Notes: generated by a model not told the origin, from the letters alone. Shown: positions 8,521-54,962, counted from the first letter of the stretch. The stretch is DNA of 64,000 nt from Candidatus Kaiserbacteria bacterium (GCA_016699245.1 CP064968.1:15654-79653), one strand, 5' to 3'. Numbers and translations: made by a program.

Positions 8521-10071
8521 ATGGCAAAACATTCGCACCTACTCCCCTATGCAAACCGACCAGATTTTAAAGTTGGTCGCGCACCCGAACTTACCGGTCG
8601 AGACCGAGTGCTGTATCGTTTTCTCGAAATCCTTCCAGGTGCAGCATCATGGACAGCACTTGTGGGCATGGTTCTCATGTCTATTTATACACCCTTTTTT
8701 GCGGCATACTTCATTATTGCATTTGCTGTCTTTTGGGTCCTTAAAACTGCTTTTCTTTCATACCACCTTCGTTATAACTGGAAGCGTCTTCGGAGTCACA
8801 TGACTGCTGATTGGAAAAGGATGATTGAGCGTTTTGAGTATGAACATCTGTATCATCTCATTATTCTTCCATACTACAATGAGTCTGAAGAAGTAATTAA
8901 TACATCTCTCGCCTCTCTCGCAGAAGTACGGTATGACAAAAAAAGTATGATTGTGGTGCTTGCGCGTGAAGAGCGTGCAGGTGAAGGCGCTGCACTCGTT
9001 GCAGAACGCATGAAAGAAAAGTGGGGAAGTACCTTTGGCAGTTTTCATATTTCTGCACACCCTGCAAATCTCCCGGGTGAGATGGCCGGCAAGGGCTCCA
9101 ATGCCACGTGGGCAGCAGAAGATGTACGAAAAAAAGTTCTTGACCCTCATGGTATCCGCTACAATCATACACTGGTATCAATTTTTGATATCGACACCGT
9201 CGTGTATTCCGACTATTTCAATTGTCTCGTATGGCATTTTATAACAGCACCGCGCCCACTCAAGAGTTCATTCCAGCCAGTACCAGTTTTCAACAATAAT
9301 ATGTGGGAAGCATCTTCACTTGCACGTGTGGTGGCGATGTCTTCCACCTTTTGGGAAATGGTACAGCAGGAGCGCCCTGAGCGCATGGCGACTTTTTCTT
9401 CCCATTCTGTCTCATTTCAAGCATTGTATGAAATTGGCTACTGGCAGACCAACATGGTCTCCGAGGATTCGCGCATTTACTGGAATCTTCTCCTTGCGAA
9501 TGATGGAGAGTACGATGTGATTCCGCTTTCGTACCCTGTCTCCATGGACGCTAATGCCGCACCGACATTTTTTGGTACAGTTAAAAATATATACAAACAG
9601 CACCGCAGGTGGACCTATGGTGTTGAAAACTTCGTCTACGTGGTGTATCACTTCACGAAGAATAAAAATATTCCCCTTGGCCGTCGCATTAAAATTGCGC
9701 TCCAGCAGGCAGAAGGGTATTGGTCTATGGTCACGAATCCGATTATGCTCATTATTCTCGGTTGGGCACCAATCTTTTTTGGAGGACGTGTCTTTCATGA
9801 GACGGTACTTTCCTACAATCTTCCTATTGTGGTACGCGACCTTCTTATTCTCGCGATGTTTGGTCTTGTGATTTCTTCCATGATATCTCTCACACTCATT
9901 CCAAAACGTCCTGAGGGGAAAAGTCGTTTCGTGTATATTGTGATGGCATTGCAGTGGGTTCTGGTGCCGATTACGATGGTTATCTTTAGTGCGATTCCCG
10001 GGCTCGATGCGCAGACACGACTTATGCTCGGTAAGTATATGGGTTTTTGGGTTACTCCCAAATCCCGGTGA
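8521..10071 (+). CDS. Membrane-embedded family 2 glycosyltransferase (processive, cellulose/chitin-synthase-like)
   Basis: 516 aa with N-terminal TM helices, a cytoplasmic GT-A domain with D-x-D-like segments, the Q-x-x-R-W hallmark (KQHRRW) and several C-terminal TM helices. The stop is TGA. Confidence 0.7.
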   Translation: MAKHSHLLPYANRPDFKVGRAPELTGRDRVLYRFLEILPGAASWTALVGMVLMSIYTPFFAAYFIIAFAVFWVLKTAFLSYHLRYNWKRLRSHMTADWKRMIERFEYEHLYHLIILPYYNESEEVINTSLASLAEVRYDKKSMIVVLAREERAGEGAALVAERMKEKWGSTFGSFHISAHPANLPGEMAGKGSNATWAAEDVRKKVLDPHGIRYNHTLVSIFDIDTVVYSDYFNCLVWHFITAPRPLKSSFQPVPVFNNNMWEASSLARVVAMSSTFWEMVQQERPERMATFSSHSVSFQALYEIGYWQTNMVSEDSRIYWNLLLANDGEYDVIPLSYPVSMDANAAPTFFGTVKNIYKQHRRWTYGVENFVYVVYHFTKNKNIPLGRRIKIALQQAEGYWSMVTNPIMLIILGWAPIFFGGRVFHETVLSYNLPIVVRDLLILAMFGLVISSMISLTLIPKRPEGKSRFVYIVMALQWVLVPITMVIFSAIPGLDAQTRLMLGKYMGFWVTPKSR

Positions 10072-10343
10072 CGCACGAGCACCTCATCTGCTTTGTTGCC
10101 CTGCAAAACTGCAGCCTCACCGTACGTCATGTACGCCTCGACAGCAGTTTTTTGTGCGCCGCGCATCTGTGGCACTCGTGCGTCACCGGTGGTGCTGGGG
10201 CAATCAAATCAATCTGGCGGAAGCGTACGGTACGCCTCGGTTTAAAACAATGTATCTAATGTACGTCCAAGGAATATGACTCATATTTTAGTGTAGTTTT
10301 AAGTTTTGAAAATGACTCTACTTCGTGGTACCCTACATCTACT

Positions 10344-11480
10344 ATGGGCCCACATATCGAGGTACAGCCACTCCCACACAAAACGCGTCAGCGAACATTT
10401 TTGTTTCTGGTACTCATTTTTCTTGTATCTCTCCCATTCCTGTACTTCTATGCTACGGGGTATCGTTTTGATTTACAGAAACCTACAAACCTCGTCAGTA
10501 CCGGTGGTATATATGTCGCGGTTGATGTAACCGGCGCAGACATATTTATCGACGGAGAACTCGTGCGAGAGACACGCACGTTTCGCAAGGCTTTTTATGC
10601 TCAAAGATTAGATGCTGGCACACACCGTGTTCATGTGCAGAAAGACGGATACCATACGTGGGTAAAAGAACTTCCCGTTTCAAAGCGACTTGTCACCGAG
10701 GCAGAAGCGTTTAATCTCCCTCTTGTACCACAGGTGCGTGTTATTACTCCGTTTCTGTCTGCAACGGGCACTCCTGTGGTACGTACACCCCTTCTCACTG
10801 CATCCACTTCCGAGATGATGCTCGCTACTACCACTACGGCAACATCTACCTTTATCAATAATGGAGAGTACACACGGCTCATTGAAAACTTCAATGCAAC
10901 CACCACCGAGTTACAGGAAAGTACTGCAGAACAAATTAAAGATATTTTCAACACGAGCACGACAACCGAAGTGAAGGGGGAAGAAGCTACTTCGACCATT
11001 ACCTATAACGGTGTACAACTCATACGTGCGAGCGACGAGGTCTTTGCGACATGGGTTGGCTCGTTTGAGCAGATGCCGTACTACTACTGTGCGCCCGATT
11101 TCCCTGCATACAGCACTTCATCACCTGCTGATACCTTACCTTCTGAAGTGATTCCTACGCCTGAAGATGAAGTAATTCTCCTTGAGGAAGGCATTATGGG
11201 CCCCGTACAAACTATTCCAAAAGATACGGCGTGTGACCCACGTATTCGTATCGATAGAAAATGGCAGGAGGTGAGTGATTTTGATTTCTTCCCCGGAAGC
11301 ACCGACTTTGTGGTGATGGCACTGAGTGACGGCATCTATGTGGTAGAGGTAGACGACCGCTCATGGCAGAATGTGCAACCACTTATCATGGGTACAGATC
11401 TTGCATTTCATATAGAGAACGGCTCGATTTATGTATACGACGGTGCTCTTATTTATCAAGTATTATTGCAAACTGAATAA
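10344..11480 (+). CDS. Membrane-anchored PEGA-domain-like protein (hypothetical)
   Basis: N-terminal TM helix, then a PEGA-like beta segment (GGIYVAVDVTGADIFIDGELVRE...GTHRVHVQKDGYHTWVKELPV), a Thr/Ser-rich linker and a C-terminal domain. Confidence 0.4.
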   Translation: MGPHIEVQPLPHKTRQRTFLFLVLIFLVSLPFLYFYATGYRFDLQKPTNLVSTGGIYVAVDVTGADIFIDGELVRETRTFRKAFYAQRLDAGTHRVHVQKDGYHTWVKELPVSKRLVTEAEAFNLPLVPQVRVITPFLSATGTPVVRTPLLTASTSEMMLATTTTATSTFINNGEYTRLIENFNATTTELQESTAEQIKDIFNTSTTTEVKGEEATSTITYNGVQLIRASDEVFATWVGSFEQMPYYYCAPDFPAYSTSSPADTLPSEVIPTPEDEVILLEEGIMGPVQTIPKDTACDPRIRIDRKWQEVSDFDFFPGSTDFVVMALSDGIYVVEVDDRSWQNVQPLIMGTDLAFHIENGSIYVYDGALIYQVLLQTE

Positions 11481-17320: not shown

Positions 17321-18394
17321 TTATTCCACCACCACACTGAGTGACGCAGTGTTGTTTCCTGTCTTTGTGTCACCAGCTACTGAAAGCGTATTGGTGAAGG
17401 TGACTACTTCACCCTCCTCCACATCGAGATAGAATCCAAGAGTGAACATCACATGTGACTGTGGGGCAAGTGGTGCCTGCACGGGTGAAGTATACACTTC
17501 GCCCGTAGGCAAGATTGTGGTGAATGACCAGTTGCCTGAAGTCTTGGTACCGAGGTTAATTACATCAAAGCGAATCGCATTATGTGCATCAGTGTTGAAT
17601 GTCTTGGTGAATCCAAAGACACCATTTTGAAGCACTCCAGAGCCCAGAATCTGCACACTGAGGTCGGTATACATTTCCTTTGCAGGTGCTACAGGGATGA
17701 CGGGCTTCGCAACTGGCTCTTGAGGCACCGTAGGCGTAACTGGCTTTTGGGTAGGCTCCTTCACCGCCTCAGGTACAGGCTTTACATCCGCAGGCTTCTT
17801 TTCAGTATCGACGATAGCTACTTCAGTCGTCGTTGCCGTTTCTCTGTGTGCTACTTCACGTACAGGAATTGTTGCGTTAACGACAGTAACCTTTGTGGTG
17901 TGTTTCAGAGTATCTCCCGTCTTATTATTTGTGAAGGCAACGGTGAGGGGAATATCGGTGAAGCGGAAGTCATCAGAAAGCGCGGTGAGGGAAAGCCCAT
18001 GCACATTCGCCGGGAGGGTCAGTGTGTCAGTACAAGCGATAGGCATAAAAGTATCGTCACCACTTCGTACCTCGAGTCGTACTCCGGGGACACACTCGTA
18101 CGTAAGGGCATATTCACCTTCAGTGCGGAAGTCTGTCCAAGAAATTTGGAATGACTCAGCAGAATTTACGACAATCTTTTCGGTCGCTATGGTTAATTCT
18201 TTTGCAGGGCGGTAGAGATTAATAGTCTCTGCAATAGACGCAAGGGAAGCAAAACCTTCCGGTGCACGCTTACTGCCTTCGACGGTGATATACACGAAAA
18301 AGGCGATGGTGACGAGAAAGCCAACAATCGCAAGTGTCTTCACGACGGCACTCTTTAGAGTTTGTGTTTCATTCATATGCAAGTATGCTACCAC
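17321..18394 (-). CDS. Hypothetical N-terminally membrane-anchored surface protein with Pro/Thr-rich linker
   Basis: 357 aa with a TM helix (LAIVGFLVTIAFFVYITV), a beta-rich domain, a proline-rich linker (KPADVKPVPEAVKEPTQKPVTPTVPQEPVAKPVIPVAPA) and a C-terminal domain. Confidence 0.4.
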   Translation of the reverse strand: MVAYLHMNETQTLKSAVVKTLAIVGFLVTIAFFVYITVEGSKRAPEGFASLASIAETINLYRPAKELTIATEKIVVNSAESFQISWTDFRTEGEYALTYECVPGVRLEVRSGDDTFMPIACTDTLTLPANVHGLSLTALSDDFRFTDIPLTVAFTNNKTGDTLKHTTKVTVVNATIPVREVAHRETATTTEVAIVDTEKKPADVKPVPEAVKEPTQKPVTPTVPQEPVAKPVIPVAPAKEMYTDLSVQILGSGVLQNGVFGFTKTFNTDAHNAIRFDVINLGTKTSGNWSFTTILPTGEVYTSPVQAPLAPQSHVMFTLGFYLDVEEGEVVTFTNTLSVAGDTKTGNNTASLSVVVE

Positions 18395-18503: not shown

Positions 18504-19229
18504 ATGACTCAAGCAAATCCCTACGCACCGTATTCTTCAAAGCGCGAACAGCGTATTGTCTTTTTCTTTGTGACGGTAGGGACTATAGCGCTTACCTATG
18601 CTTTTTTCTATATAGTCGATTTCCTTCCGGAGCAAAAGACCGATGGTAACGAAACTCCCTCACGCATGGAAGCGGAGCAGATGGCTGTATCTGAAACAGA
18701 GAATGTGACACTCAGTGATGAAGAAACTGAAAAGCAGGATACGCTCGCCCACGATACAACTGCAGTAGTGAGTGAAGACGCAACCTTTCCTATTGCTATC
18801 ATTTTTGATTCACTCGATGATAGAAAAGTTCGTGTCCTTAATCCAGAATCTTCTTCGGTGGAGGCACTTGATGCAGCACTTCTTTCTGGTGTGATTCGTC
18901 ATCCTGACTCAGCAGACTTTGCCGAGAAGGGCACCATATTCCTTTTGGGACACTCAAGTTATCTGCCGAATGTCATGAATAAAAACTTCCAAGCGTTTAA
19001 TGGTATTCAAAAACTAAAGTGGGGAGATACTATTCGTCTCCGCTCCAGCGACACCGAATACGTGTACACGGTAGATAGGGTATACGAAGCAAAGGCTTCA
19101 AGCGCCGAGGTGCCACTGCAATATGATATCGCAAAGCTTGTGCTCGCGACCTGTAATACCTTTGCGAGTAAGGACGACCGCTTCGTAGTGGAAGCCACGC
19201 TCGTAGACTCATACCCGCTTGAGGATTAG
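18504..19229 (+). CDS. Sortase-family transpeptidase
   Basis: N-terminal TM anchor (IVFFFVTVGTIALTYAFFYIV), catalytic His context (TIFLLGHSS), catalytic Cys in a TLxTC-like motif (LVLATCNTF) and a conserved Arg (DRFVVEATLV). Order and spacing match sortase catalytic motifs. Confidence 0.65.
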   Translation: MTQANPYAPYSSKREQRIVFFFVTVGTIALTYAFFYIVDFLPEQKTDGNETPSRMEAEQMAVSETENVTLSDEETEKQDTLAHDTTAVVSEDATFPIAIIFDSLDDRKVRVLNPESSSVEALDAALLSGVIRHPDSADFAEKGTIFLLGHSSYLPNVMNKNFQAFNGIQKLKWGDTIRLRSSDTEYVYTVDRVYEAKASSAEVPLQYDIAKLVLATCNTFASKDDRFVVEATLVDSYPLED

Positions 19230-19480
19230 TGTGTCGAGAGAGGAGAAGTGTCCGAACTTTGACAAAAAATAGGTTGTGATGTACAATATTTTTATATAGT
19301 TCTCCTCTGTTCTTCATGCGCCTGTGTGCATGGCTCATGGCAAAATAATCATATTTTGCTTTGTACATTAATTTCAGTCAAAAGCGGAATCTTTCCATGC
19401 TTTCAATATGTTTACGTACACGCGTAGGTGAGCATATTTAGAGGTATGAACTCATTACTTAATTTTATCGAACTCATTAT

Positions 19481-21529
19481 ATGAAGAACAAATACACAAT
19501 TGCATACATAGGTGCGATTATCGCACTCCCGGTAGCGCTCTTGTTCATCGTGCCAGCAGTTGCAACAACAAATGCATTCGACTGGAACGGTGGAAGTACT
19601 GCACAGTCTTCCTTTGCAGAAGCTGAGGCTGATGTATTCGGAGATGCGGACGCATGGACATGGGGTACAGGAACAGATGCAGGTGCAGAGGCTGAAACTG
19701 AGTCTGACGCATCAGCGCACGCATCCGCTTTTGGTAATGGTGCCGAGGCAGAAGCAGGTGCTAATACTGAAGACTACGCATGGTCATCAACAGGGACAGA
19801 TGATGCGGGAGTCACTTCTGGGGAAGCCTACGCCTGGAACACCGGCAGCGCGTACGCGTCTGCACACGTGCATACAAACACCTGTGGTCATGACTGGTGT
19901 GATTACCACGATTGTGATGATCACGACGAGTGTACATGGGGCTGTGAGGAGGAAGAAACTCATGCACCTACCTGTACCTTGAATGTTCTCCCTAGTTCAA
20001 TCGTAGAGGGGAATTCAGTAAAGCTTGTATGGGATACCAGTTACGCATCTGCAGTCTCGATTGCAGGAATTGGTTCTGTGGTACTTGATGGCTCTAAGGA
20101 CCTTACACCAACACAGTCACAGACCTATACGCTTACCGCAACAGGTGAAGGTGGTACGGCAATATGTGCAAAGTCAGTGCACGTAACTCCAAAAGAGGTG
20201 GTATATCCAGCGCCACTCTGTACATTCAGTATTAATCCTGAATCTATTACGGAAGGTGGATCAGCAACATTTACATGGGATACCACCAATGCAACCGCAG
20301 TGTCTATTGACACCATTGGAGCAGTCACTGTTGATGGTACAAAAGTTGTGTACCCAACACAGACAAAAAACTATGAACTTACCGCAACAGGAAATGGTGG
20401 TACGGTAAAGTGTACCGACTCCGTTCACGTAACACCAAAAGTGAATCCACCAACACAAGTAGTGAAGTGCGATTCGTTTACTGCAAGTAAATCACATATC
20501 AAGAAAGGAGAAGCAGTGGTACTCGCGTGGAATACTACTGACGCACAGAGTGTGCTCATCAACGAAGGTGTTGGTACAGTCGCACTCGATGGGAATACCA
20601 CGGTCTATCTCTTCCGTAGTACAACCTTCACTCTCACCGCGCGTAATGGTGCTGAAACCAATACGTGTCAGGTATCGGTCGGTGTTGATGCGGAAAATAC
20701 TACTTCCGGAACCACAACTACTATCACGAATGTAAACAATAACTACGTTGCGACAACTACTATCACGAATGTAAACAACAACAGCAACTATAACTACAAC
20801 TCATACAGTGGTGGAAGTAGCCGTAATAACAACAACAATGACGATGATGCTCGCTGTGATTCATTCACGGTAAGTGATTCTCGTGTCGAAGAAGGAGATA
20901 AAGTTACACTCCGTTGGAAGACTACCGACGCAGACGATGTTGATATTAACCAAGGTGTGGGTGATGTTGACGATGATGGAAGCGAAACAGTAACCATCGA
21001 TGAAGACACCACTTTTACCTTGACTGCGCGCGGTGATGGCGATACTGATACGTGTCGCGTGAGTGTCAAGGTAGACGAAGATGATGACAACAATGATAAC
21101 GACAAACTTCGTTGTGAATTTAGCGTTTCCGACAGTGCTATCCGCACCGGTGAGAGCGTTATCCTCTCATGGATAAACGACGCTACTGACCGCCTTGTCC
21201 TCAAGGACAACAACGGCAAGACACTTGCAGACTCAAAGAAGAATAGTGATATCGATGAGGATGTAGATTTCCTTACCGTAAAGCCATCAAAGACCACCAA
21301 GTATACCCTTGATGTCTATGACGGCAACAAGAAGGAAACGTGCGTGCTCAATGTTGAAGTTGGAAAGGGCACCGTGAGTGGTATCTCACTCTCACAGGTC
21401 CCCTACACAGGATTTGAAGCAGGGCCAATGCTTACCGCTATTTTCTACGGTGCAATCGCTCTCTGGGGTCTTGTACTCGCCTACGCGCTTGTCCTAAAAA
21501 AAAAGCACTCCCGGATGCTCTCAAAGTAA
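19481..21529 (+). CDS. Cell-surface protein with 5-6 Ig-like repeat domains and a C-terminal sortase-type sorting signal (non-canonical VPYTG)
   Basis: Signal/TM N-terminus and an Asp/Glu/Ala-rich low-complexity region. Cys-containing ~95-aa repeats (C..S...I.EG.S..L.W.T..A..V.I...G.V...G...V.P..T..Y.LTA.G.GG...C...V.V) occur about six times. The C-terminus SQVPYTGFEAGPMLTAIFYGAIALWGLVLAYALVLKKKHSR is motif + TM helix + basic tail. The sortase gene is directly upstream. Confidence 0.6.
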   Translation: MKNKYTIAYIGAIIALPVALLFIVPAVATTNAFDWNGGSTAQSSFAEAEADVFGDADAWTWGTGTDAGAEAETESDASAHASAFGNGAEAEAGANTEDYAWSSTGTDDAGVTSGEAYAWNTGSAYASAHVHTNTCGHDWCDYHDCDDHDECTWGCEEEETHAPTCTLNVLPSSIVEGNSVKLVWDTSYASAVSIAGIGSVVLDGSKDLTPTQSQTYTLTATGEGGTAICAKSVHVTPKEVVYPAPLCTFSINPESITEGGSATFTWDTTNATAVSIDTIGAVTVDGTKVVYPTQTKNYELTATGNGGTVKCTDSVHVTPKVNPPTQVVKCDSFTASKSHIKKGEAVVLAWNTTDAQSVLINEGVGTVALDGNTTVYLFRSTTFTLTARNGAETNTCQVSVGVDAENTTSGTTTTITNVNNNYVATTTITNVNNNSNYNYNSYSGGSSRNNNNNDDDARCDSFTVSDSRVEEGDKVTLRWKTTDADDVDINQGVGDVDDDGSETVTIDEDTTFTLTARGDGDTDTCRVSVKVDEDDDNNDNDKLRCEFSVSDSAIRTGESVILSWINDATDRLVLKDNNGKTLADSKKNSDIDEDVDFLTVKPSKTTKYTLDVYDGNKKETCVLNVEVGKGTVSGISLSQVPYTGFEAGPMLTAIFYGAIALWGLVLAYALVLKKKHSRMLSK

Positions 21530-21543
21530 CTAGGGAGGAAGAT

Positions 21544-21828
21544 GTGGTCACACCCGTGGCGACACCTGAAATTCCTCCCAATCTTCCGGTATTGCCAGAA
21601 GGTGAAGTGGAGGATGAAATTGACGCGCTCAAAGCACTTGAAACGCATGCGCACATACATGCAACACTCATCTCGAGTGATGCACTCCGTCTCATTGCGA
21701 ATCACGGCACCCGTGCTGAACAGATGGAACTCTTGGATAAAGTTATTGCACGCGCAAAGACCAAGTATCCTACTGAAAATGAGTGGACCGTACTCAACAA
21801 AGAACGCGTCATAACACTCCTCGCATAA
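21544..21828 (+). CDS. Hypothetical small acidic protein
   Basis: 94 aa ORF with a GTG start and helical-looking sequence. The frame was preferred over the overlapping 21542 ORF on composition only. Confidence 0.3.
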   Translation: MVTPVATPEIPPNLPVLPEGEVEDEIDALKALETHAHIHATLISSDALRLIANHGTRAEQMELLDKVIARAKTKYPTENEWTVLNKERVITLLA

Positions 21829-21947: not shown

Positions 21948-22259
21948 TTATCCCAGAGCCAAGTCCCGCACATACTGCGATACAGAATCGTACCCTTTTT
22001 CAATCGCTCTTTTTTCAATACGCGCCTTATCTGCTCCTGACACACGAAAACGAATGACGTCTGACTGTTTCCGCCCATACTCTTGTTCGGCAATAATTAG
22101 ATTAGGTAGATCGAGAATGACCGATGATAAATCTTCCTCAAGAAACTCTTGATCAATACATGCGCCTTTCGCAATAAAATGCACTGTCCCTGACTTTGTT
22201 TTTTCAAGCGTATAGGGATATATTTTATTTTTTATAGTTATACTTGCTTTTGTTTTCAT
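21948..22259 (-). CDS. hicB: HicB-like antitoxin (N-terminal HicB fold + C-terminal ribbon-helix-helix)
   Basis: The C-terminus IRFRVSGADKARIEKRAIEKGYDSVSQYVRDLAL is RHH-like. The start ATG overlaps the hicA TGA stop (ATGA coupling). Confidence 0.45.
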   Translation of the reverse strand: MKTKASITIKNKIYPYTLEKTKSGTVHFIAKGACIDQEFLEEDLSSVILDLPNLIIAEQEYGRKQSDVIRFRVSGADKARIEKRAIEKGYDSVSQYVRDLALG

Positions 22260-22504
22260 ATATTTCTTTTTATGAATACTTGTATCTGAGTGCGTATCTG
22301 CTGCTTGTAGAAATTTTTACACTCATTGTTGTGTACGGGGACAATAATATCGTGTTGTAACTGCGAGTGTTTCCACTTTACGTGACTGCCTTTTGCATAT
22401 ATTTTCTCAAAACCAACGTAAATAAGGATTTTTTCGATATCTGCATAACGAACATTCTGTGGTGAATGGTCAAACTTTTGAAGCAGTTTTTCAATCTGAC
22501 TCAT
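22256..22504 (-). CDS. hicA: HicA-like mRNA interferase toxin
   Basis: MSQIEKLLQKFDHSP...GFEKIYAKGSHVKWKHSQLQHDIIVPVH...KQQIRTQIQ matches the HicA pattern (GF..GSH..H...PVH). The internal ATG at 22504 is preferred over the longer ORF with a hydrophobic leader. Confidence 0.55.
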   Translation of the reverse strand: MSQIEKLLQKFDHSPQNVRYADIEKILIYVGFEKIYAKGSHVKWKHSQLQHDIIVPVHNNECKNFYKQQIRTQIQVFIKRNI

Positions 22505-22601
22505 TGTAACTACATTATATATAAATGTAGTTACAATGCAAGTATCAAAGCAGTGGTATATAATCAGGAAGGAGATAGAGAAGTATCTCAACTAATAAAT
22601 T

Positions 22602-22862
22602 ATGAAAAAAGATCCATTTGTATTAACGAAGGAAGAGCAGGAAATTGAGAACGCGTTTGCACAGGGTGCGTATTCCTCTGTCCCCAATCTCGCGGAAGAA
22701 AAAAAGAGATATGCGCAAATCGCACAAAATACCTTTGCACGAAACAAGATGATTACACTCCGTATCTCCGAACGCAATCTTCTCCGTGTGAAAGCAGCAG
22801 CCGCCCGTGAGGGACTGTCATACCAAACATACATCACTGCGCTTATTCAGAAGAATGTGTAG
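22602..22862 (+). CDS. BrnA / CopG-type type II antitoxin (apparently orphan)
   Basis: EEKKRYAQIAQNTFARNKMITLRISERNLLRVKAAAAREGLSYQTYITALIQKNV matches the CopG-antitoxin (BrnA) family pattern. No BrnT/DUF497 partner ORF is adjacent. Confidence 0.55.
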   Translation: MKKDPFVLTKEEQEIENAFAQGAYSSVPNLAEEKKRYAQIAQNTFARNKMITLRISERNLLRVKAAAAREGLSYQTYITALIQKNV

Positions 22863-26014: not shown

Positions 26015-29000
26015 ATGTATTCGTACATGCAACAGTCTGATGCCACAGTGAGTACCTCGCGCGACCAGTTCTTTTTGGAAAGAATAGGTTTTTTCTTTAC
26101 TCAGTGTTTTTTACATGCACGAGGAGTGCATCATAAGAAGGTCTCACTGATTGTTGCATTTGGACTTTTTTTGATAGTGGTTTGTTTTCCTTCGGCAAAG
26201 GCTGAGGCCGCAATTCAATTTGTCGGTTCTACGACTGCATCGGGCGATAATGCCGCATACAATCTCTCCCTCACCGGACTCACGGGGGGTATCTCGAGTA
26301 CTGCAGCACAGGATGATTTTGTTGTTGTGGTAAATACATACGTTGGTACTGCAGATGGTAATCCTGGCGTCGGCACAGCGGGCTATACAGAAATGGCCGA
26401 TTTGTATGCAAATAATAACAGAGACGTTAATTTCTCAGTGAATTATAAGTTTATGACGGCGACTCCCGATACAACAGTTTCTTGTAACGGGAGTGCAACG
26501 GCCGGTAGTGCATCGACCTGCCTCGCGATGGTTTTTCGGGGTGTGGATCTCACGACGCCGATGGATGTCGCATCGACGACGGCAACCAGTAACACTACAG
26601 AAGACGTTGATTGTCCCGCAATAACCCCCGTCACCAGTGGATCGTACGTACTCTGTACAGGAGGGGGTGCGGGAGCAAATGTCGACGCTGCGATTCCTGC
26701 AATTGCAGGGTACGCTCATGCATATCTGCAGTTTGATTCCACCAACTACACTTCTGCATCAGTTGGTGCGTATAAGGCATGGACATCAGGCGCCGAAGAT
26801 CCTGCAGCATTTGTTATGGACTTAGGTACACAGGCGAACAATTCAATGGCGGCACTCACTATGGCATTACGTGAACAACGCACCGTCTCCCTCTCCTCCG
26901 CCTCCAACCAAGTCTTTTCATACGCGCAAGCAACGACCACCATCAGCACCATCACCATTACCGATAACGTGGGCGCATCGGTCACCGCAGCAAACGACAT
27001 CCGCATCCGCATCGCCTCTACCTCCCTCACCATGAAGTGGGACACCACCGACACCACCGCCACCTTTGGCGGTACCGCCTCGGGCAAAGTATCAAACCCC
27101 GTCTCCTACGAAAACAATGGCACGACACTCGTAATACCTGTAGACACCAACTTTAGTGCAGGAGAGACACTCACGGTGAGTGGACTCTCCTTCACCCAGT
27201 TCCTCGGCACCAGTACCGCAACCACGGGGCTCAACATGTACCTCGCGGGAGGAAGTGACGCCGTGAGTGATGGTGCTGATGATAAGACGATAGTTATCTA
27301 TTCCGCCTTGCCCACCCTCACCACTCCCACCGCCACCGCCATTAGTTCCACTACCGCAACCCTCGGTGGCACCATCGTAAGTAACGGTGGGGGACTGACC
27401 GCCCGTGGTACCTGCTGGGGCACGACCCCATCCCCCGTCACCAACTGTGTTGCAGAAGGCGGTACAGGAACGGGTGTCTTCACGCAGGCACGCACCGGCC
27501 TTTCGCAGGCCACCTTCATCTACGCCCGTGCCTATGCCACAAACGCTACCGGCACCGCATACTCAAGTGACACCCTCTTCCTCACCGAAGGCACCTTCGT
27601 ACCGGGTACGGAGAATGTCACCGCAGTGGGAACGAGTACTGCAACGATAGGGGGGACGATCTTAGGTTCTTTCTCGACTTTTACGACTGCAACAGATACG
27701 CCAGAGGCAAACATAAAAGCCCTCACCGTTGACTCCGTAAATGGTGTTCTCTACGCAGGGTCAGATACGAATGGATACATCTACCGCTGTCTCCTTTCTA
27801 CAGGGTGTGACTCCACTGGAGATTTCACTATTGTATATGACACTGCGTCTACAGATATGTTCGCACTCACTATTGCGAGTAGTACTTTGTATGTAGCAGC
27901 AATAACAGGTGCAGGTTTTGGCACCATCCACCGATGCCTCCTCTCCACGGGGTGTGACGCTTCGGGTGATTTTACAGAAGTGCTTAGTAGTCCTGTTGAC
28001 TTCTTTTATTCGTTCACCGTTGATTCTGTTAACGGTGTCCTTTACGTAGGAGGAAGTTATGCTGGTACCCAGGAGTCTATCCATCGATGCCTCCTCTCCA
28101 CGGGATGTGAAGACTGGGGTGACTTCTCACAAGCGTATAGCACGTTTGTAAGTCAAAAAATTATCTCCCTGACCATCGCAAGTAGCACCCTCTACGCAGG
28201 AACGGACACAGAAGGTATTATCTACCGATGCCTCCTCTCTACAGACTGTGACGCTACGGTAGATTACACAACTGCTTTCGACACCACAGAAACAAAAATT
28301 CTTTCTCTCGCGTTTGACTCAGTTAACGGCGTCCTCCATGTAGGGACAAGTCCGAACGGCATCTTTTACCCATGTCTCCTCACCACGGGGTGTGACGCCT
28401 CGGGTGATTTTAATAGTCCCGCGAACACGGCCGATGACGAAATATACTCCATCATATTTTCAAGCACCACACGCTACGCAGCCACGGGTCCTCGTGGAGT
28501 CATCTACGCATGTTTCCTCCCCACGGGGTGTGATGGCCTCGGCGCCTTCACCACCGCAACAGACACCCCTGCGACCGCTATCTACGCTCTCGCCATCGAC
28601 TCCGCAAATAATGCGCTCTACGCAGGCTCGGGCGCAGACGGCATCATATACAAAAGCGAAATAGGTCCCGCATACCCCATCACCGAACGTGGCACCTGCT
28701 GGGGAACCAGCCCATCCCCCGTCACCAATTGCCTTGCCACCTCAGGGACGAGTACCGGCGCCTTCACCCATGCACGTACTGGTCTTCCGAGTGGCACTCT
28801 CATCTACGCGCGCGCGTATGTTACCTATGCATCAGGCACCGCATACTCAGCTGACATAAGTACCACCACTCTTAGTGTGCCACCAACCACCCTCTCCTCC
28901 GCCTCCAACCAAGTCTTTTCATACGCGCAAGCAACGACCACCATCAGCACCATCACCATTACCGATAACGTGGGCGCATCGGTCACCGCAGCAAACGACA

Positions 29001-29650
29001 TCCGCATCCGCATCGCCTCTACCTCCCTCACCATGAAGTGGGACACCACCGACACCACCGCCACCTTTGGCGGTACCGCCTCGGGCAAAGTATCAAACCC
29101 CGTCTCCTACGAAAACAATGGCACGACACTCGTAATACCTGTAGACACCAACTTTAGTGCAGGAGAGACACTCACGGTGAGTGGACTCTCCTTCACCCAG
29201 TTCCTCGGCACCAGTACCGCAACCACGGGGCTCAACATGTACCTCGCGGGAGGAAGTGACGCCGTGAGTGATGGTGCTGATGATAAGACGATAGTTATCT
29301 ATTCCGCCTTGCCCACCCTCACCACTCCCACCGCCACCGCCATTAGTTCCACTACCGCAACCCTCGGTGGCACCATCGTAAGTAACGGTGGGGGACTGAC
29401 CGCCCGTGGTACCTGCTGGGGCACGACCCCATCCCCGTCACCAACTGTGTTGCAGAAGGCGGTACAGGAACGGGTGTCTTCACGCAGGCACGCACCGGCC
29501 TTTCGCAGGCCACCTTCATCTACGCCCGTGCCTATGCCACAAACGCTACCGGCACCGCATACTCAAGTGACACCCTCTTCCTCACCGAAGGCACCTTCGT
29601 ACCGGGTACGGAGAATGTCACCGCAGTGGGAACGAGTACTGCAACGATAG
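26015..29650 (+). CDS. Giant secreted repeat protein, 5' segment (about 1140 aa in frame before a 1-nt homopolymer deletion)
   Basis: N-terminal signal/TM (KKVSLIVAFGLFLIVVCFPSAKAEAA). Contains FN3-like modules (TCWGT.PSPVTNC...GTGTG.FT.ARTGL...IYARAYATNA.GTAYS) and ~45-aa YRCLLSTGCD...GDFT repeats. An 874-bp segment (26891-27764) is duplicated perfectly at 28892-29763 except for C5->C4 at 29432-29436 and G6->G5 at 29650-29654. The ORF ends at a TAG created by the frameshift. Confidence 0.75.
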   Translation: MYSYMQQSDATVSTSRDQFFLERIGFFFTQCFLHARGVHHKKVSLIVAFGLFLIVVCFPSAKAEAAIQFVGSTTASGDNAAYNLSLTGLTGGISSTAAQDDFVVVVNTYVGTADGNPGVGTAGYTEMADLYANNNRDVNFSVNYKFMTATPDTTVSCNGSATAGSASTCLAMVFRGVDLTTPMDVASTTATSNTTEDVDCPAITPVTSGSYVLCTGGGAGANVDAAIPAIAGYAHAYLQFDSTNYTSASVGAYKAWTSGAEDPAAFVMDLGTQANNSMAALTMALREQRTVSLSSASNQVFSYAQATTTISTITITDNVGASVTAANDIRIRIASTSLTMKWDTTDTTATFGGTASGKVSNPVSYENNGTTLVIPVDTNFSAGETLTVSGLSFTQFLGTSTATTGLNMYLAGGSDAVSDGADDKTIVIYSALPTLTTPTATAISSTTATLGGTIVSNGGGLTARGTCWGTTPSPVTNCVAEGGTGTGVFTQARTGLSQATFIYARAYATNATGTAYSSDTLFLTEGTFVPGTENVTAVGTSTATIGGTILGSFSTFTTATDTPEANIKALTVDSVNGVLYAGSDTNGYIYRCLLSTGCDSTGDFTIVYDTASTDMFALTIASSTLYVAAITGAGFGTIHRCLLSTGCDASGDFTEVLSSPVDFFYSFTVDSVNGVLYVGGSYAGTQESIHRCLLSTGCEDWGDFSQAYSTFVSQKIISLTIASSTLYAGTDTEGIIYRCLLSTDCDATVDYTTAFDTTETKILSLAFDSVNGVLHVGTSPNGIFYPCLLTTGCDASGDFNSPANTADDEIYSIIFSSTTRYAATGPRGVIYACFLPTGCDGLGAFTTATDTPATAIYALAIDSANNALYAGSGADGIIYKSEIGPAYPITERGTCWGTSPSPVTNCLATSGTSTGAFTHARTGLPSGTLIYARAYVTYASGTAYSADISTTTLSVPPTTLSSASNQVFSYAQATTTISTITITDNVGASVTAANDIRIRIASTSLTMKWDTTDTTATFGGTASGKVSNPVSYENNGTTLVIPVDTNFSAGETLTVSGLSFTQFLGTSTATTGLNMYLAGGSDAVSDGADDKTIVIYSALPTLTTPTATAISSTTATLGGTIVSNGGGLTARGTCWGTTPSPSPTVLQKAVQERVSSRRHAPAFRRPPSSTPVPMPQTLPAPHTQVTPSSSPKAPSYRVRRMSPQWERVLQR

Positions 29651-29654
29651 GGGG

Positions 29655-32600
29655 ACGATCTTAGGTTCTTTCTCGACTTTTACGACTGCAACAGATACGC
29701 CAGAGGCAAACATAAAAGCCCTCACCGTTGACTCCGTAAATGGTGTTCTCTACGCAGGGTCAGGAGGTAGTGGCATCATCTACCGCTGTCTCCTTTCTAC
29801 AGGGTGTGATTCCACAGGAGACTTCGTTATTGCGTATGACACTACACATTCAAATATCTCCTCTCTTGCCATTGCGAGTAGTACTCTGTTTGTTAACGGC
29901 TTTACAAGCACAGACAATACTGTTGTGTACCGCTGTCTCCTCTCCACGGGGTGTGACGCCTCGGGTGATTTTACGACTGCATGGACACCATCTTCTCCTC
30001 AATCAAGCCGTACATTAGTTGCAGATTCAGTAAACAACATACTCTACATGGGGGGTCAAGATAATTCAGATCAATTTACAATTTATCGATGTGCCCTTTC
30101 TTCGGGATGTGACTTCCAGACTGACTTCACGACTGCATATGCACCTGCCGCACAGATAGACGTCCATTCCCTCACCATTGCCAGTAGCACGCTCTACGCA
30201 GGCTCGGGTAATGGTGGTAATATTTACCGCTGTCTCCTCTCCACGGGGTGTGATGCTGATGTGGATTTTACCCTTGCATACAACACCACAGAATCGCAGA
30301 TTTATTCCCTCACGAGTGACTCAGCTAATGGTGTTCTGTATGTAGGGACGAGCCCGAACGGCATCATCTACCGATGCCTTCTCACGACAGGTTGTGACGC
30401 CTCGGGTGACTTCACGACGGCAACAGACACCCCACAGACAGATATCTACGCTCTCACCATCTCAAGTAGCACCCTCTACGCAGGCACGGGCGCAAACGGT
30501 GTCATATATCAGTGCCTCACCTCCACAGGCTGTGATTCTACAAATGACTTCACCACCGCAACAGACACTCCCGCTACCACTATAAACGCTCTCGTCATCG
30601 ATTTCGCGAATAGTTCTATTTACGCAGGCTCCGGTGCTACGGGTATCATATACAAAACCAGTATAGGTTCCGCATACCCCATCACCGAACGTGGCACCTG
30701 CTGGGGCACGAGTCCCAACCCCGTCACCAACTGCCTTGCCACCTCAGGGACAAGTACTGGTGCCTTCACCCATGCACGCACTGGCCTTCCCCAGGCTACC
30801 CTCATCTACGCTCGAGCGTATGTTACCTACGCATCAGGCACCGCATACTCAGCCGACGTAAGCACTACCACCCTCGGCGTCGCAGCACCCACCCTCTCCT
30901 CAGGAGCCAACCAAGCCTTTTTCTATGGTCAAGCAACCACCACCATAAGTACCATCACCATTACCGACACTCCTGGCGGACTCGTCACCGCAGCAAACGA
31001 CATCCGCATCCGCATCGCCTCTACCTCCCTCACCATGAAGTGGGACACCACCGACACCACCGCCACCTTTGGCGGTACCGCCTCGGCCAAAGTATCAAAC
31101 CCTGTCTCCTACGAAAACAACGGCACCACACTTGTGATTCCTGTTGACACCAACTTTGGAACAGGGGACACCCTCACCATAGACGGACTTTCTTTTTCAC
31201 AGTTCCTTGGGGTGAGTACCGCCACCATCGGGCTCAACATATACCTCGCGGGGGCAAGTGACGCCGTGAGTGATGATGCCGATGATAAGACGATGAGTAT
31301 TAGTTCCACCACCCCTACCGTTACCACCCCCACTACCACTGCTATAGGCCTTAATAGTGCAACTCTCGGCGCTACCATTACGAGTGACGGTGGGGGAACA
31401 CTGAGTGCGCGCGGTACCTGCTGGGGCACCAGCGCATCCCCCGTCACCAACTGTACCGCAGAAGGCGGTACGGGAACGGGTGTCTTTACGCAGGCACGCA
31501 CCGGTATGGCGACGGGTACTCTCTACTACTATCGTGGATATGCGACAAATGCCTCGGGTACGACATATTCGGCAGATGGTACCTTTAGCACCAATGCTGT
31601 TCCCGTACTCACTACTCCCACTGCTACTGCCGTGGGTTCAAGTACCGCTACCCTCGGTGCTACCCTTGTTTCCACAGGTACCAACACTATTAATGCTCGC
31701 GGTACCTGCTGGGACACGAATTCGTCTCCCACCATCAACTGTCTTGCAGAAGGTGGTACGGGAACAGGTGCTTTCACGCAGGCACGTACAGGTCTGACAG
31801 CGGGCACACTGTACTACTATCGTGGGTATACGACATATACTGACGGTGCAAGTGTCACCCGTACCGCATATTCAGCAGATGGCACATTTGTAAGTTCAAC
31901 CACCCCTACACTCACCACCCCCACCGTTACTGCCGTCAGTTTTACAACCGCAACATTCGGCGCCAATATCACGAGTGACGGCGGAGCACCACTGAGTGCC
32001 CGTGGTACCTGCTGGGGCACCAGTGCGTCCCCGGTGACCAACTGTCTTGCAGAAGGCGGTACGGGAACGGGTGTCTTTACGCAGGCACGCACCGGTCTCC
32101 CCCAGGGCACACTCATTTACGCCCGCGCATACGCAACAAACGCATACGGTACTTCATACTCAGCCGATATAAGTACTACCACCAGCATCTCCACGAGTGA
32201 TCTCATCATCTCCGGTACCCTCTATAGCGACGAAGGGGTCACCACGATAAACGGAGGGAAGACCATTGCTCTCGCTATCGGCACCACCACCCCCTCAGTC
32301 CACACCACTACCTCCAATGGTTCTGGCGTATGGACTGCTACCATCCCCACCGGCCACACCATCGGCACCTCTACCCCTATCCTCGCTTGGGTAGATAATG
32401 ACGGCACCACCCGTGCCGCACTCCTCACGAAGGCAACATCCACCTCTAATATCTCTGGCCTTAGTCTCTATAAAGATAGAGTGATTGTGTCGCATGAGGC
32501 AACAAGTGGTACCTCAACGACACTCACTGACATGTCCTTCTATGACAACGACAACGACAGTGACATTCAATACAATGCGACAACAACAAGCGCAGGGCTT

Positions 32601-54559: not shown

Positions 54560-54950
<391 letters not shown>

Positions 54951-54962
54951 CTAGTCATCATC

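What the first reader, a model, noticed from the sequence alone, without database searches (positions are those of the whole stretch)
18504..21529. Sortase plus adjacent Ig-repeat surface protein with a non-canonical VPYTG sorting signal
The 241-aa protein at 18504 has sortase catalytic motifs in the correct order (LLGHSS His; LVLATCNTF Cys; RFVVEATLV Arg) and an N-terminal membrane anchor. The next gene encodes a 682-aa protein with six Cys-containing Ig-like repeats. Its C-terminus is a textbook tripartite cell-wall sorting signal, but the motif is VPYTG rather than LPXTG/LAXTG. A dedicated sortase-substrate pair with an unusual motif in a CPR-like genome suggests covalent surface display. 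It sits beside another membrane-anchored Pro-rich protein (17321-18394) and 4.5 kb upstream of the giant protein.
Basis: partly seen in the sequence, partly recalled or inferred. Interest (0 to 1): 0.6.

Follow-up and report, generated by a model that had tools for sequence, protein, structure and literature searches.

The report
CPR sortase, VPYTG substrate, poly-A recoding
A candidate-phylum (Kaiserbacteria) genome carries a dedicated sortase next to its surface-protein target, whose anchor signal reads VPYTG rather than LPXTG; a conserved run of nine A's right after the membrane anchor probably lets the cell make both a short, classical form and a long form that carries an extra domain predicted to lie inside the cell.

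Summary
ORF 18504-19229 is a real sortase: it hits Pfam PF04203, its His/Cys/Arg are invariant, and its model has a sortase fold. No class A-F model claims it. ORF 19481-21529 is a secreted protein with five (not six) Cys-bracketed repeats, ending in VPYTG, a TM helix and a KKK tail.

The motif is conserved. It is present in 64 of 80 species-level loci (14 of the other 16 run off their contig). Across 150 diverse representatives it reads [V/L/I/T/M]P[Y/H/Q]TG, with P, T and G invariant.

- **A longer ancestral gene.** In most relatives the "sorting signal" is not C-terminal. The 40-residue motif-plus-TM block is highly conserved and is followed by a post-TM module, presumably cytoplasmic, of 100-300 aa. 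The window's next ORF (21544-21828) is domain 1 of that module.
- **A recoding site.** In the window and in all 16 other distinct split loci checked, an A9 run sits exactly at the break (window 21496-21504) and the module lies in the −1 frame. The run occupies at least three positions in different clades, and its enrichment there has P = 4e-19. In some species, conserved module segments have no start codon of their own.

This points to programmed recoding, most likely transcriptional slippage, that yields a short (682 aa) and a long (782 aa) isoform. All function is inferred; nothing has been shown biochemically.

The parts
18504..19229 (+). Sortase-family cysteine transpeptidase, 241 aa. It has an N-terminal TM anchor (residues ~13-39, nt ~18540-18620), a disordered linker, and a catalytic domain with His150 (nt 18951-18953), Cys217 (19152-19154) and Arg226 (19179-19181).
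   Evidence: Pfam PF04203 at 59.3 bits. The triad is invariant in alignment A1. The AF2 model matches class E/A/D/C sortase structures at E~1e-10 and TM 0.6-0.73. All NCBIfam class models fall far below cutoff. More than 1100 homologues were found; the named ones are annotated as Kaiserbacteria or Paceibacterota.
19481..21529 (+). Zero-frame (short) isoform of the sortase target, 682 aa. It comprises a signal peptide, an acidic/Cys-rich N-terminal region, five Cys-bracketed Ig-like repeats (nt ~19973-21343), VPYTG, a TM helix and a KKKHSRMLSK tail.
   Evidence: ORF and repeat count. Homologues lie downstream of the sortase in 69 of 80 loci. The family has 471 representatives at 50% clustering. 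No Pfam or NCBIfam model matches.
21398..21412 (+). VPYTG pentapeptide (residues 640-644), the predicted sortase recognition and cleavage site (T643|G644).
   Evidence: Present in 64 of 80 loci. Among 150 diverse representatives the counts are VPYTG 121, LPYTG 13, IPYTG 7, TPYTG 4 and a few others, with P, T and G invariant. Paralogues whose TM has diverged and whose tail is short still keep it.
21413..21495 (+). Conserved FEAGP juxtamembrane segment and TM helix (MLTAIFYGAIALWGLVLAYALVL).
   Evidence: Positions T+11, F+14, Y+15, W+21 and Y+27 relative to the motif Pro are invariant in all 65 sequences. This is much more conserved than a generic sorting-signal TM.
21496..21504 (+). A9 homopolymer (CTA AAA AAA AAG, containing A_AAA_AAG in the zero frame). 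This is the proposed recoding site; one extra A in the mRNA, or a −1 ribosomal slip, joins the upstream ORF to the −1 frame.
   Evidence: Sequence. The same A9 sits at the break in 14 split loci plus 3 further distinct metagenome loci on 4 contigs, always with the module in the −1 frame. Fifteen of 19 A>=9 runs in 1.17 Mb lie in this 3.5% of the sequence, P=4e-19. Lys codon usage is about 50% AAA.
21505..21828 (+). −1 frame extension, annotated as ORF 21544-21828 (94 aa). It holds a linker, the PPNLP motif and domain 1 of the post-TM module. Joined to the upstream ORF it gives a 782-aa long isoform.
   Evidence: phmmer matches the post-TM extension of 45 fused relatives, E down to 9e-23. Alignment A2 shows the correspondence. 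The −1 frame is open from 21418, and the long isoform translates without an internal stop. A GGGAGG + GTG that could also allow separate initiation is visible in the sequence.
17321..18394 (-). Divergently transcribed 357-aa membrane-anchored protein with a Pro-rich linker. It is a conserved neighbour with no demonstrated role in the system.
   Evidence: Homologue immediately upstream of the sortase in 75 of 80 loci. Only a weak CARDB hit. It carries no P-x-T-G signal.

Best explanation
This is a dedicated sortase-target system that is widespread in Paceibacteria/Kaiserbacteria (CPR).

The proposed mechanism:
1. The membrane-anchored sortase (18504-19229) recognises [V/L/I/T]PYTG just outside the membrane in the adjacent repeat protein.
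2. It cleaves between T643 and G644.
3. It transfers the ectodomain to a cell-envelope acceptor, most likely the peptidoglycan precursor.
4. This leaves a G-FEAGP-TM stub in the membrane.

The ancestral and most common form of the target carries a two-domain module after the TM, predicted to be cytoplasmic. It consists of a PxNLP motif, an α/β domain 1 and an all-α domain 2.

In the window's lineage the gene is interrupted at a selected A9 run directly after the TM. Standard decoding gives the 682-aa short form with a classical short basic tail. Adding one A by RNA-polymerase slippage, or a −1 ribosomal slip on A_AAA_AAG, gives a 782-aa long form that keeps PxNLP and domain 1. The cell would therefore make both forms.

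Shown here: sortase family membership, conservation of the motif, homology of the 94-aa ORF to the fused module, and the conserved A9/−1 geometry.

Inferred: catalysis, the acceptor, that recoding actually occurs and how often, and what the module does.
For: Sortase:
- Pfam hit.
- Invariant His/Cys/Arg.
- Sortase fold.

Target pairing:
- P-x-T-G + TM was found only as P[YH]TG, always downstream of the sortase and on its strand, in 64 of 80 loci. Of the other 16, 14 are cut by contig ends.
- P, T and G are invariant, and the first position is V/L/I/T/M, in 150 diverse representatives.
- The family grades into fully classical signals such as P0308, with LPYTG, a generic TM and RMRIL.
- Short-tailed paralogues keep the motif while their TM diverges.

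Fused ancestry:
-.

Recoding:
- A9 lies at the break in all 14 A9-split loci, plus 3 further distinct metagenome loci on 4 contigs. An A7 lies there in 4 more loci. The downstream ORF is always in the −1 frame, and the site occupies four gene positions when the A7 group is counted.
- Enrichment of A9 runs in this region has P=4e-19.
- AAA and AAG are used about equally, so an invariant run is not drift.
- In L014 and L022 the first possible start codon in the −1 frame is 88-91 codons downstream, inside domain 1. In L001, L033 and L084 it lies after conserved GFLGF or PxNLP elements.
- In one group both frames after the run are conserved as protein.
- L024 has the reverse arrangement, with A9 in frame.

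Literature:
- Bacterial RNA polymerase slips efficiently on 9 A/T, and Thermus dnaX uses this (PMC5009743, PMC1088944).
Against: - No biochemical, transcript or peptide data exist for any member.
- A post-TM domain of 100-300 aa after a sortase signal was not found in the literature searched here, and I know of no precedent. The TM is far more conserved than in known sorting signals. The block could therefore have a different primary role.
- L061/P0186-type loci keep an intact sortase beside a protein that has the TM and module but no ectodomain and no PYTG.
- Gene order around the locus (pheS-pheT-gyrB ... thrS) is conserved in general, so adjacency is weaker evidence than it would be in a fluid genome.
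- In about half the loci one or more unrelated genes lie between the sortase and the target.
- In the window a GGGAGG + GTG could allow separate translation of the 94-aa ORF, and standalone soluble modules do exist.
- No conserved stimulatory RNA structure was found.
- The four site positions all being −1 is only modest evidence on its own, because homopolymers are also mutational hot spots for single-base deletions.
Confidence: 0.62

Rival explanations
1. Plain gene fission without recoding. A single-base deletion at a mutation-prone poly-A tract split an ancestral fused gene. The 682-aa protein is the only product of the upstream ORF, and the 94-aa ORF is translated on its own as a soluble protein, or is decaying.
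For: The window has GGGAGG 5 nt before the GTG at 21544. Many standalone soluble modules exist in databases, for example P0220, P0169 and P0226. Homopolymers are hot spots for frameshift mutation, which by itself would explain why breaks sit at A-runs and why a deletion puts the module in the −1 frame.
Against: The A9 is invariant across deeply diverged species although AAG is used as often as AAA. In L014 and L022 no start codon exists until 88-91 codons into the −1 ORF, inside the conserved domain. Conserved GFLGF and PxNLP segments lie upstream of any start codon in L001, L033 and L084. The module ORFs stay intact in every split lineage checked.
Confidence: 0.18
2. DNA-level phase variation. 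The A-run is a contingency locus, and replication slippage (A9 to A10 and back) switches individual cells heritably between the short and long forms.
For: Homopolymer tracts are classic phase-variation switches. Sortase-dependent pilus genes of Bifidobacterium breve use a poly-G replication-slippage switch (PMC9187656).
Against: All 17 distinct split loci, assembled with different assemblers, show A9. No fused relative carries A10 at these sites, and the only in-frame long run is L024's A9 at another position. A frequently switching locus should sometimes be assembled in the other state. This rival can coexist with RNA-level slippage.
Confidence: 0.08
3. Not a sorting signal. VPYTGFEAGP-TM is the conserved juxtamembrane/TM element of a single-pass receptor-like protein whose ectodomain and post-TM module act together uncleaved. 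On this view the neighbouring sortase serves other substrates and is adjacent only through conserved synteny.
For: The TM face is invariant. Most members carry a large post-TM module, unlike known sortase targets. L061-type loci keep the sortase without any PYTG partner. Synteny extends to housekeeping genes. The NCBIfam scan, whose library should include an LPXTG-anchor model, reports no such hit.
Against: The pentapeptide conforms to the sortase consensus hydrophobic-P-x-T-G, with P, T and G invariant, at the correct distance outside a TM. Paralogues and distant members keep the pentapeptide while their TM and tail become generic and short. No other P-x-T-G + TM candidate exists in any of the 80 loci or in the 64-kb window.
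Confidence: 0.12

Closest known systems
Dedicated single-target sortase systems, for example the class GN 'marine' sortase (NCBIfam TIGR03784) with its cognate target, and class E/D sortases with LAxTG or LPxTA-type signals (from my own knowledge, apart from the family names returned)
   Same: One membrane-anchored sortase is encoded next to one, sometimes two, target proteins. The target carries a lineage-specific variant of the LPXTG pentapeptide followed by a TM. The sortase has the same fold and the same His/Cys/Arg triad.
   Different: No class model reaches its cutoff; the best score is 30.8 bits against cutoffs of 140-165. The motif is [V/L/I/T]PYTG. The 40-residue motif-TM block is nearly invariant. 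In most members a two-domain post-TM module of 100-300 aa follows the TM.
Classical LPXTG cell-wall sorting signal of Gram-positive surface proteins (SrtA substrates)
   Same: The protein has an N-terminal signal peptide, repeat-rich Ig-like ectodomains, and a pentapeptide with invariant P, T and G about 5-10 residues before a TM and basic residues. The window's zero-frame product ends in a short basic tail.
   Different: The first position is mostly Val and the third is a fixed Tyr. The signal is not at the C-terminus in most orthologues. The TM sequence is conserved. The NCBIfam scan reports no LPXTG-anchor hit.
dnaX tau/gamma recoding: −1 frameshift at A_AAA_AAG in E. coli (own knowledge) and transcriptional slippage at a 9-nt A/T run in Thermus thermophilus (PMC5009743, PMC1088944)
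   Same: A 9-nt A-run or A_AAA_AAG heptamer inside a coding region gives two products that share an N-terminal part and differ in whether they have a C-terminal domain. L024 has the same polarity as I recall for dnaX, with the zero frame giving the long form.
   Different: In the window the zero frame gives the short product and slippage gives the long one. The gene is a surface protein. The site has arisen at several positions in the same gene family. No conserved stimulatory structure was found. Nothing has been tested experimentally.
Sensing of the sortase-generated C-peptide in Streptococcus gordonii (SGO_1180 two-component system, as cited in PMC11326707)
   Same: The membrane stub left after sortase cleavage has a function of its own.
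   Different: There the stub is a short peptide sensed by a separate kinase. Here the stub would itself carry folded domains. This is only an analogy.

Membership tests
Sortase superfamily (Pfam PF04203) | Match to the sortase domain model above its gathering score | tested here: met
   59.3 bits against a cutoff of 26.6, covering residues 108-234.
Sortase superfamily (Pfam PF04203) | Catalytic His, Cys (L-x-T-C) and Arg in that order, and conserved | tested here: met
   H150, C217 (LATCN) and R226 are invariant in 20 orthologues. They are also intact in L019, L051, L033 and L061.
Sortase superfamily (Pfam PF04203) | Sortase beta-barrel fold | tested here: met
   The AF2 model has pLDDT about 80-94 over most of the catalytic domain. 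Foldseek finds 128 PDB matches at E<=1e-3; all 50 listed are sortases, with TM 0.51-0.74.
Sortase superfamily (Pfam PF04203) | Transpeptidase activity on a sorting signal | not testable with these tools
   This needs enzyme assays.
Sortase classes A-F and GN (NCBIfam class models) | Score above the class-specific cutoff | tested here: not met
   SrtD 30.8/140, class E 29.7/160, class D 24.8/165, TIGR01076 23.8/39.35, class GN 18.9/158 and class C 16.3/160. Classes A, B and F gave no hit. The fold search shows no class preference.
LPXTG-type cell-wall sorting signal | Pentapeptide L-P-x-T-G | tested here: inconclusive
   P, T and G are invariant. The first position is V (81%), L (9%), I, T or M, and x is Y. 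It is a variant of the consensus. The NCBIfam scan returned no LPXTG-anchor hit at E<=1.
LPXTG-type cell-wall sorting signal | Hydrophobic TM segment shortly after the pentapeptide, and an N-terminal signal peptide | tested here: met
   The TM starts about 6 residues after G644, and the signal peptide is MKNKYTIAYIGAIIALPVALLFIVPAVA.
LPXTG-type cell-wall sorting signal | Short positively charged tail at the extreme C-terminus | tested here: inconclusive
   This is met by the window's zero-frame product (KKKHSRMLSK). It is not met in most orthologues: only 22 of 150 representatives and about 14 of 64 loci have short tails, and the rest carry 70-330 further residues.
Programmed transcriptional slippage / −1 frameshifting | Slippery homopolymer or X_XXY_YYZ heptamer at the frame junction, conserved at nucleotide level among orthologues | tested here: met
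   A9 is present in 17 distinct loci and A7 in 4. Flanking synonymous sites vary, and the AAA fraction is about 0.5. Enrichment P=4e-19.
Programmed transcriptional slippage / −1 frameshifting | The downstream frame encodes conserved protein that is contiguous with the upstream ORF and lacks its own start codon | tested here: met
   The −1 frame is open from the run. Fusion restores the architecture of the fused relatives. The first start codon is +88/+91 codons in L022/L014. In the window itself a GTG with an SD-like sequence exists, so the window alone is ambiguous.
Programmed transcriptional slippage / −1 frameshifting | Stimulatory RNA element (needed for efficient ribosomal frameshifting, not for transcriptional slippage) | tested here: not met
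   RNAalifold predicts no conserved pairs in 9 orthologues. A hairpin seen in the window alone has z=-3.0.
Programmed transcriptional slippage / −1 frameshifting | Two products, or heterogeneous mRNA, observed | not testable with these tools
   This needs cDNA sequencing or proteomics.
AAA+ clamp-loader subunits (delta, delta-prime, gamma, RFC), domains II-III | Significant sequence or structure match | tested here: inconclusive
   Foldseek top hits are all clamp-loader chains with about 200 aligned columns, but E is only 2e-3, TM about 0.3 and rmsd 12-14 Å. The profile search against PDB and the Pfam scan give nothing. I do not file it as a member.

The most novel reading that the evidence does not exclude
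The VPYTG site may be a built-in cleavage point in a transmembrane protein. On this reading, sortase cleavage would covalently deposit the adhesin-like ectodomain on the wall and at the same time uncouple, or create, a membrane-tethered module with an AAA+ lid/collar-like fold. This would link surface display to an intracellular event, as a sortase-driven counterpart of regulated proteolysis. Conserved poly-A recoding would set the ratio of module-bearing to module-free molecules. That would be a new signalling or assembly logic, specific to ultra-small CPR bacteria, which depend on cell-surface contacts.
Probability: 0.2. Interest if true: 0.85.

Novelty: new variant of a known kind. Interest (0 to 1): 0.66.

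Why it matters
CPR/Patescibacteria are thought to depend on contact with other cells, yet the architecture of their envelope is poorly known. Sortases are known to be common in this group (PMC6744442). In the literature searches run here I found no description of a cognate signal, of a target family, or of this PYTG motif.

This locus defines three things:
- A widespread sortase family outside classes A-F, with more than 1100 homologues.
- Its likely motif, [V/L/I/T]PYTG.
- A target family with 471 clusters at 50% identity.

These give annotators a way to find such proteins and give experimentalists a peptide to test.

Two features are unusual for sortase biology. The first is a sorting signal followed by folded post-TM domains. 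The second is a selected A9 run that has arisen repeatedly at the junction. If slippage is confirmed, this would be a clear case of recoding in uncultivated bacteria. It would also be a warning that such 'split' genes should not be annotated as two genes or as pseudogenes.

Tried and rejected
- **Word-indexed search.** A search with the 136-aa C-terminus found only 3 hits. I replaced it with an alignment query and an exhaustive phmmer.
- **Clamp-loader link.** I tested the similarity of the module at sequence level with a profile against PDB and with Pfam at E<=10. Neither found anything, so I keep it only as a weak fold resemblance.
- **Replication origin.** I guessed the locus lay by the origin (dnaA/dnaN). 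Pfam shows the upstream genes are a glycosyltransferase, a PEGA protein, pheS and pheT, so I dropped that idea.
- **Frameshift-stimulating RNA.** I looked for a conserved structure after the A-run and found none. A hairpin in the window alone is not conserved.
- **Assembly error.** I considered whether the A9 is really an under-called A10. I rejected this because 17 distinct split loci, assembled with several different assemblers, agree.
- **Neighbouring proteins.** I considered the Pro-rich neighbour p357 and the giant downstream proteins as further substrates. None has a P-x-T-G + TM signal, and the giant protein is not syntenic.
- **Literature.** Searches for PYTG with sortase, and for sortase with Patescibacteria or Parcubacteria, found no description of this system.
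Full report
**1. What is there**

The two ORFs exist as described.

The 241-aa product of 18504-19229 matches the Pfam sortase domain at 59.3 bits against a cutoff of 26.6. Its exact sequence is in NCBI as 'sortase [Candidatus Kaiserbacteria bacterium]' on a 1.05-Mb contig. The window is therefore from a CPR (Paceibacteria/Parcubacteria) genome.

In an alignment of 20 orthologues with 57-86% identity, His150, Cys217 (LATCN) and Arg226 are invariant. So is much of the N-terminal TM helix, along with a DFLPE motif that follows it. An AlphaFold model has a helix at residues 13-39, a disordered linker and a β-barrel. The barrel matches solved class E, A, D and C sortases about equally well, with E about 1e-10 and TM 0.6-0.73.

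None of NCBI's class models comes near its cutoff. The best is 30.8 bits against 140. It is a sortase, but it does not belong to a described class.

The 682-aa product of 19481-21529 contains, in order:
- a signal peptide;
- an acidic, Cys-rich N-terminal region;
- five Cys-bracketed repeats of about 80 aa, four clear and one divergent and membrane-proximal.
- the C-terminus ISLSQ-VPYTG-FEAGP-TM-KKKHSRMLSK.

It matches no Pfam or NCBIfam model. It is the only P-x-T-G + TM element in the 64-kb window.

**2. Is the motif conserved?**

A scan of one genome per species returned 80 loci that encode the orthologous sortase, at 42-80% identity. I searched all six frames of these loci for any P-x-T-G followed by a TM. 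The search found only P[YH]TG. It was always on the sortase strand and downstream of the sortase, and it was present in 64 of 80 loci.

The remaining 16 loci break down as follows:
- 14 end within 0.1-4 kb of the sortase, and several of these still show the start of the target gene;
- L019 is rearranged;
- L061 has a motif-less relative.

An exhaustive HMMER search with the last 136 residues found 471 cluster representatives, 223 of them at E<=1e-10. Among the best 150 the pentapeptide counts are VPYTG 121, LPYTG 13, IPYTG 7, TPYTG 4, and one each of MPYTG, IPHTG, VPHTG and LPQTG.

So P, T and G are fixed and the first position is hydrophobic. This is an LPXTG-type signal with a relaxed first position and a fixed Tyr.

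**3.

In most loci the motif is followed by 70-330 further residues, not by about 40.

The conserved unit is a block of about 40 residues: GISLTQ-VPYTG-FEAGP-xLTxxFYxLLxxWxLxxAYxLVI-[KR][KR]. In this block T+11, F+14, Y+15, W+21 and Y+27 are invariant in 65 sequences. That is far more than a generic sorting-signal TM would need.

After the TM come, in order (alignment A2):
- a variable linker;
- a conserved PxNLP motif;
- domain 1, about 75 aa;
- domain 2, about 95-115 aa (present in many members).

The window's next ORF, 21544-21828 (94 aa), matches this extension in 45 fused relatives, with E down to 9e-23. It even contains the PPNLP motif. Domain 2 is absent from the window.

No Pfam, NCBIfam or PDB sequence match exists for the module. 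An AlphaFold model of a standalone module (P0220, pLDDT 85) shows an α/β domain and an all-α domain. Its best Foldseek matches are domains II-III of clamp-loader subunits. These are weak, with E 2e-3, TM about 0.3 and rmsd about 13 Å. I treat this as a resemblance only.

Architectures among the 150 representatives are:
- domain 1 only: 52;
- domains 1 and 2: 46;
- other extensions: 30;
- short tail: 22, of which 8 have a divergent, generic TM.

The last group looks fully classical. It includes the second paralogues in L007 and L017 and P0308. These proteins keep the pentapeptide while the TM and tail drift. That is the best internal evidence that the pentapeptide is recognised in its own right.

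**4. The junction is a conserved A9 run**

The 682-aa ORF reads ...GTC CTA AAA AAA AAG CAC... TAA. This contains nine A's at 21496-21504, with the heptamer A_AAA_AAG in the zero frame. From my own knowledge, that heptamer is the slippery site of E. coli dnaX. The −1 frame is open from 21418 through to 21828.

With one extra A, the mRNA would encode a 782-aa protein. Its sequence runs ...LVLKKK-ALPDALKVTREEDVVTPVATPEIPPNLP... and continues into domain 1 without an internal stop.

The same geometry holds in every split relative:
- A9 lies directly after the TM in L001, L002, L003, L010, L014, L021, L022, L033 and L035, as in the window.
- A9 lies about 55 residues later in L020, L026 and L030.
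- A9 lies about 97 residues after the motif in L042.
- A7 is found in L041, L047, L050 and L058, at a site homologous to that of the L020 group. There the −1 frame holds only a PPNLP stub.

In all of these the module is in the −1 frame. Four further metagenome contigs, produced by other assemblers and representing three distinct loci, show the same A9 and −1 arrangement. Seven more protein clusters carry the signature of a gene call that starts inside the −1 frame reading of the TM; three of those are the ones verified.

Several lines argue that this is selected rather than accidental:
- **Enrichment.** Of 19 runs of nine or more A's on the + strand in 1.17 Mb, 15 lie in the 40 kb of post-motif sequence. 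The binomial P is 4e-19.
- **Codon usage.** AAA makes up only about half of Lys codons, and A is at the third codon position in only about 20% of codons. An invariant xxA-AAA-AAA-AAG across lineages whose flanking synonymous sites differ is therefore not drift.
- **Missing start codons.** In L014 and L022 the first ATG, GTG or TTG in the −1 frame is 88-91 codons beyond the run, inside domain 1. In L001, L033 and L084 it lies after conserved GFLGF or PxNLP elements. Those conserved residues can be made only by reading through from upstream.
- **Dual coding.** In the L020/26/30/41/47/50/58 group the zero-frame tail (KKKVEALVAKYxGRxW) is also conserved as protein.
- **Mirror arrangement.** L024 has A9 in frame, so the long form is the default and slippage truncates it within 5-11 codons.

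No conserved RNA structure follows the run. The literature states that bacterial RNA polymerase slips efficiently on runs of 9 A or T, and that Thermus dnaX uses such a run to make two products (PMC5009743, PMC1088944). I therefore favour transcriptional slippage. A −1 ribosomal slip on the heptamer is not excluded.

**5. Caveats**

- Nothing here is experimental.
- The neighbourhood (glycosyltransferase, PEGA protein, pheS, pheT, gyrB, p357 on the opposite strand, sortase, target, thrS) is broadly conserved. Adjacency is therefore less telling than it would be in a fluid genome.
- In about half the loci the gap between the sortase and the target is 0.7-4.6 kb. Where I inspected such gaps (L051, L033), they held unrelated ORFs.
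- L061 and the P0186-type proteins keep an intact sortase next to a TM-plus-module protein that has no ectodomain and no PYTG. In those genomes either the sortase has other substrates or the partnership is not purely enzyme and substrate.
- In the window itself, a GGGAGG lies 5 nt before the GTG at 21544. That could allow separate initiation of the 94-aa ORF.
- Homopolymers are also mutational hot spots, so 'always at an A-run, always −1' is not decisive on its own. The argument rests on conservation of the run and on the missing start codons.

**6. Mechanism and comparison**

The proposed sequence of events is:
1. The target is exported through its signal peptide and held in the membrane by the TM.
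2. The type-II-anchored sortase attacks T643-G644.
3. It passes the ectodomain to an envelope nucleophile.
4. The G-FEAGP-TM stub remains in the membrane, with or without the module.

The Cys pairs that bracket each repeat fit an extracytoplasmic, disulfide-bonded protein. The invariant TM face suggests a specific helix-helix contact, possibly with the equally conserved sortase TM. That last point is inference.

A function for the membrane stub has a precedent in the C-peptide sensing reported for S. gordonii, as cited in PMC11326707.

The closest known kinds are dedicated single-target sortase systems and classical LPXTG signals. This system differs from them in four ways:
- the sortase fits no described class;
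- the motif is a variant;
- the TM is conserved and a folded post-TM module follows it;
- a recoding site lies at the junction.

The recoding resembles dnaX. Sortases are known to be frequent in CPR (PMC6744442), but I found no description of this motif, target family or junction.

**7. Verdict**

I rate this a new variant of a known kind, with interest 0.66. The sortase-target pairing is likely (about 0.75). Programmed recoding at the A9 run is likely (about 0.7). The role of the module is unknown.

Noticed in passing
window 54590-54890: This stretch consists of very long homopolymer tracts (poly-G of more than 50, C15, A11, T9 and others) with no coding sense. It looks like a sequencing or assembly artefact, for example two-colour-chemistry poly-G reads, not real sequence. 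The ORFs listed at 54572-55637 that overlap it should not be trusted.
   Followed up: partly
window 21948-22862: A HicA-family toxin (22256-22591, minus strand; Pfam PF07927) lies with a ribbon-helix-helix/NikA-like partner (21948-22259, minus strand). A CopG-antitoxin-like ORF (22602-22862, plus strand) follows. These are inserted between the target gene and thrS. The HicA pair is shared only with L021, and the CopG-like ORF with L001, L002 and L010, so they are recent insertions into the conserved neighbourhood.
   Followed up: partly
window 17321-18394 (minus strand): A 357-aa membrane-anchored protein with a Pro-rich linker between two β-rich regions, and only a weak CARDB match. It is divergently transcribed from the sortase in 75 of 80 species, including L061, which lacks the ectodomain target. 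Its function is unknown, and it may belong to the same envelope module.
   Followed up: partly
window 26015-29650 and 29925-39377: The 1211-aa ORF contains an internal duplication of roughly 220 aa. Its last ~70 residues look out of frame (Pro/Ser/Arg-rich), and a 3150-aa ORF follows. This may be one giant surface-protein gene broken by a frameshift or by a repeat mis-assembly. It has no Pfam hit and is not syntenic with the sortase locus in other species.
   Followed up: no
L061:8608-9579 and proteins P0181, P0182, P0186, P0188, P0193, P0197, P0199, P0200, P0210, P0225, P0234, P0239: A subfamily of about 330-aa proteins has an apparent TM hairpin plus both module domains, but no ectodomain and no PYTG. 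In L061 such a protein sits directly after an intact sortase. What the sortase does in these genomes is unexplained.
   Followed up: partly
L041, L047, L050, L058 (A7 runs near 11732, 11221, 11230 and 10980): In this clade the zero-frame tail KKVEALVAKYxGRxW is conserved. The −1 frame after an A7 run encodes only a short peptide that contains DDTPPNLP. This suggests PxNLP is a functional short linear motif in its own right.
   Followed up: partly
window 8521-11480: A family-2 glycosyltransferase and a PEGA-domain protein lie upstream of pheS and pheT. They are conserved in 31 and 49 of the 80 loci, so they are further envelope-related genes in the same conserved block.
   Followed up: no
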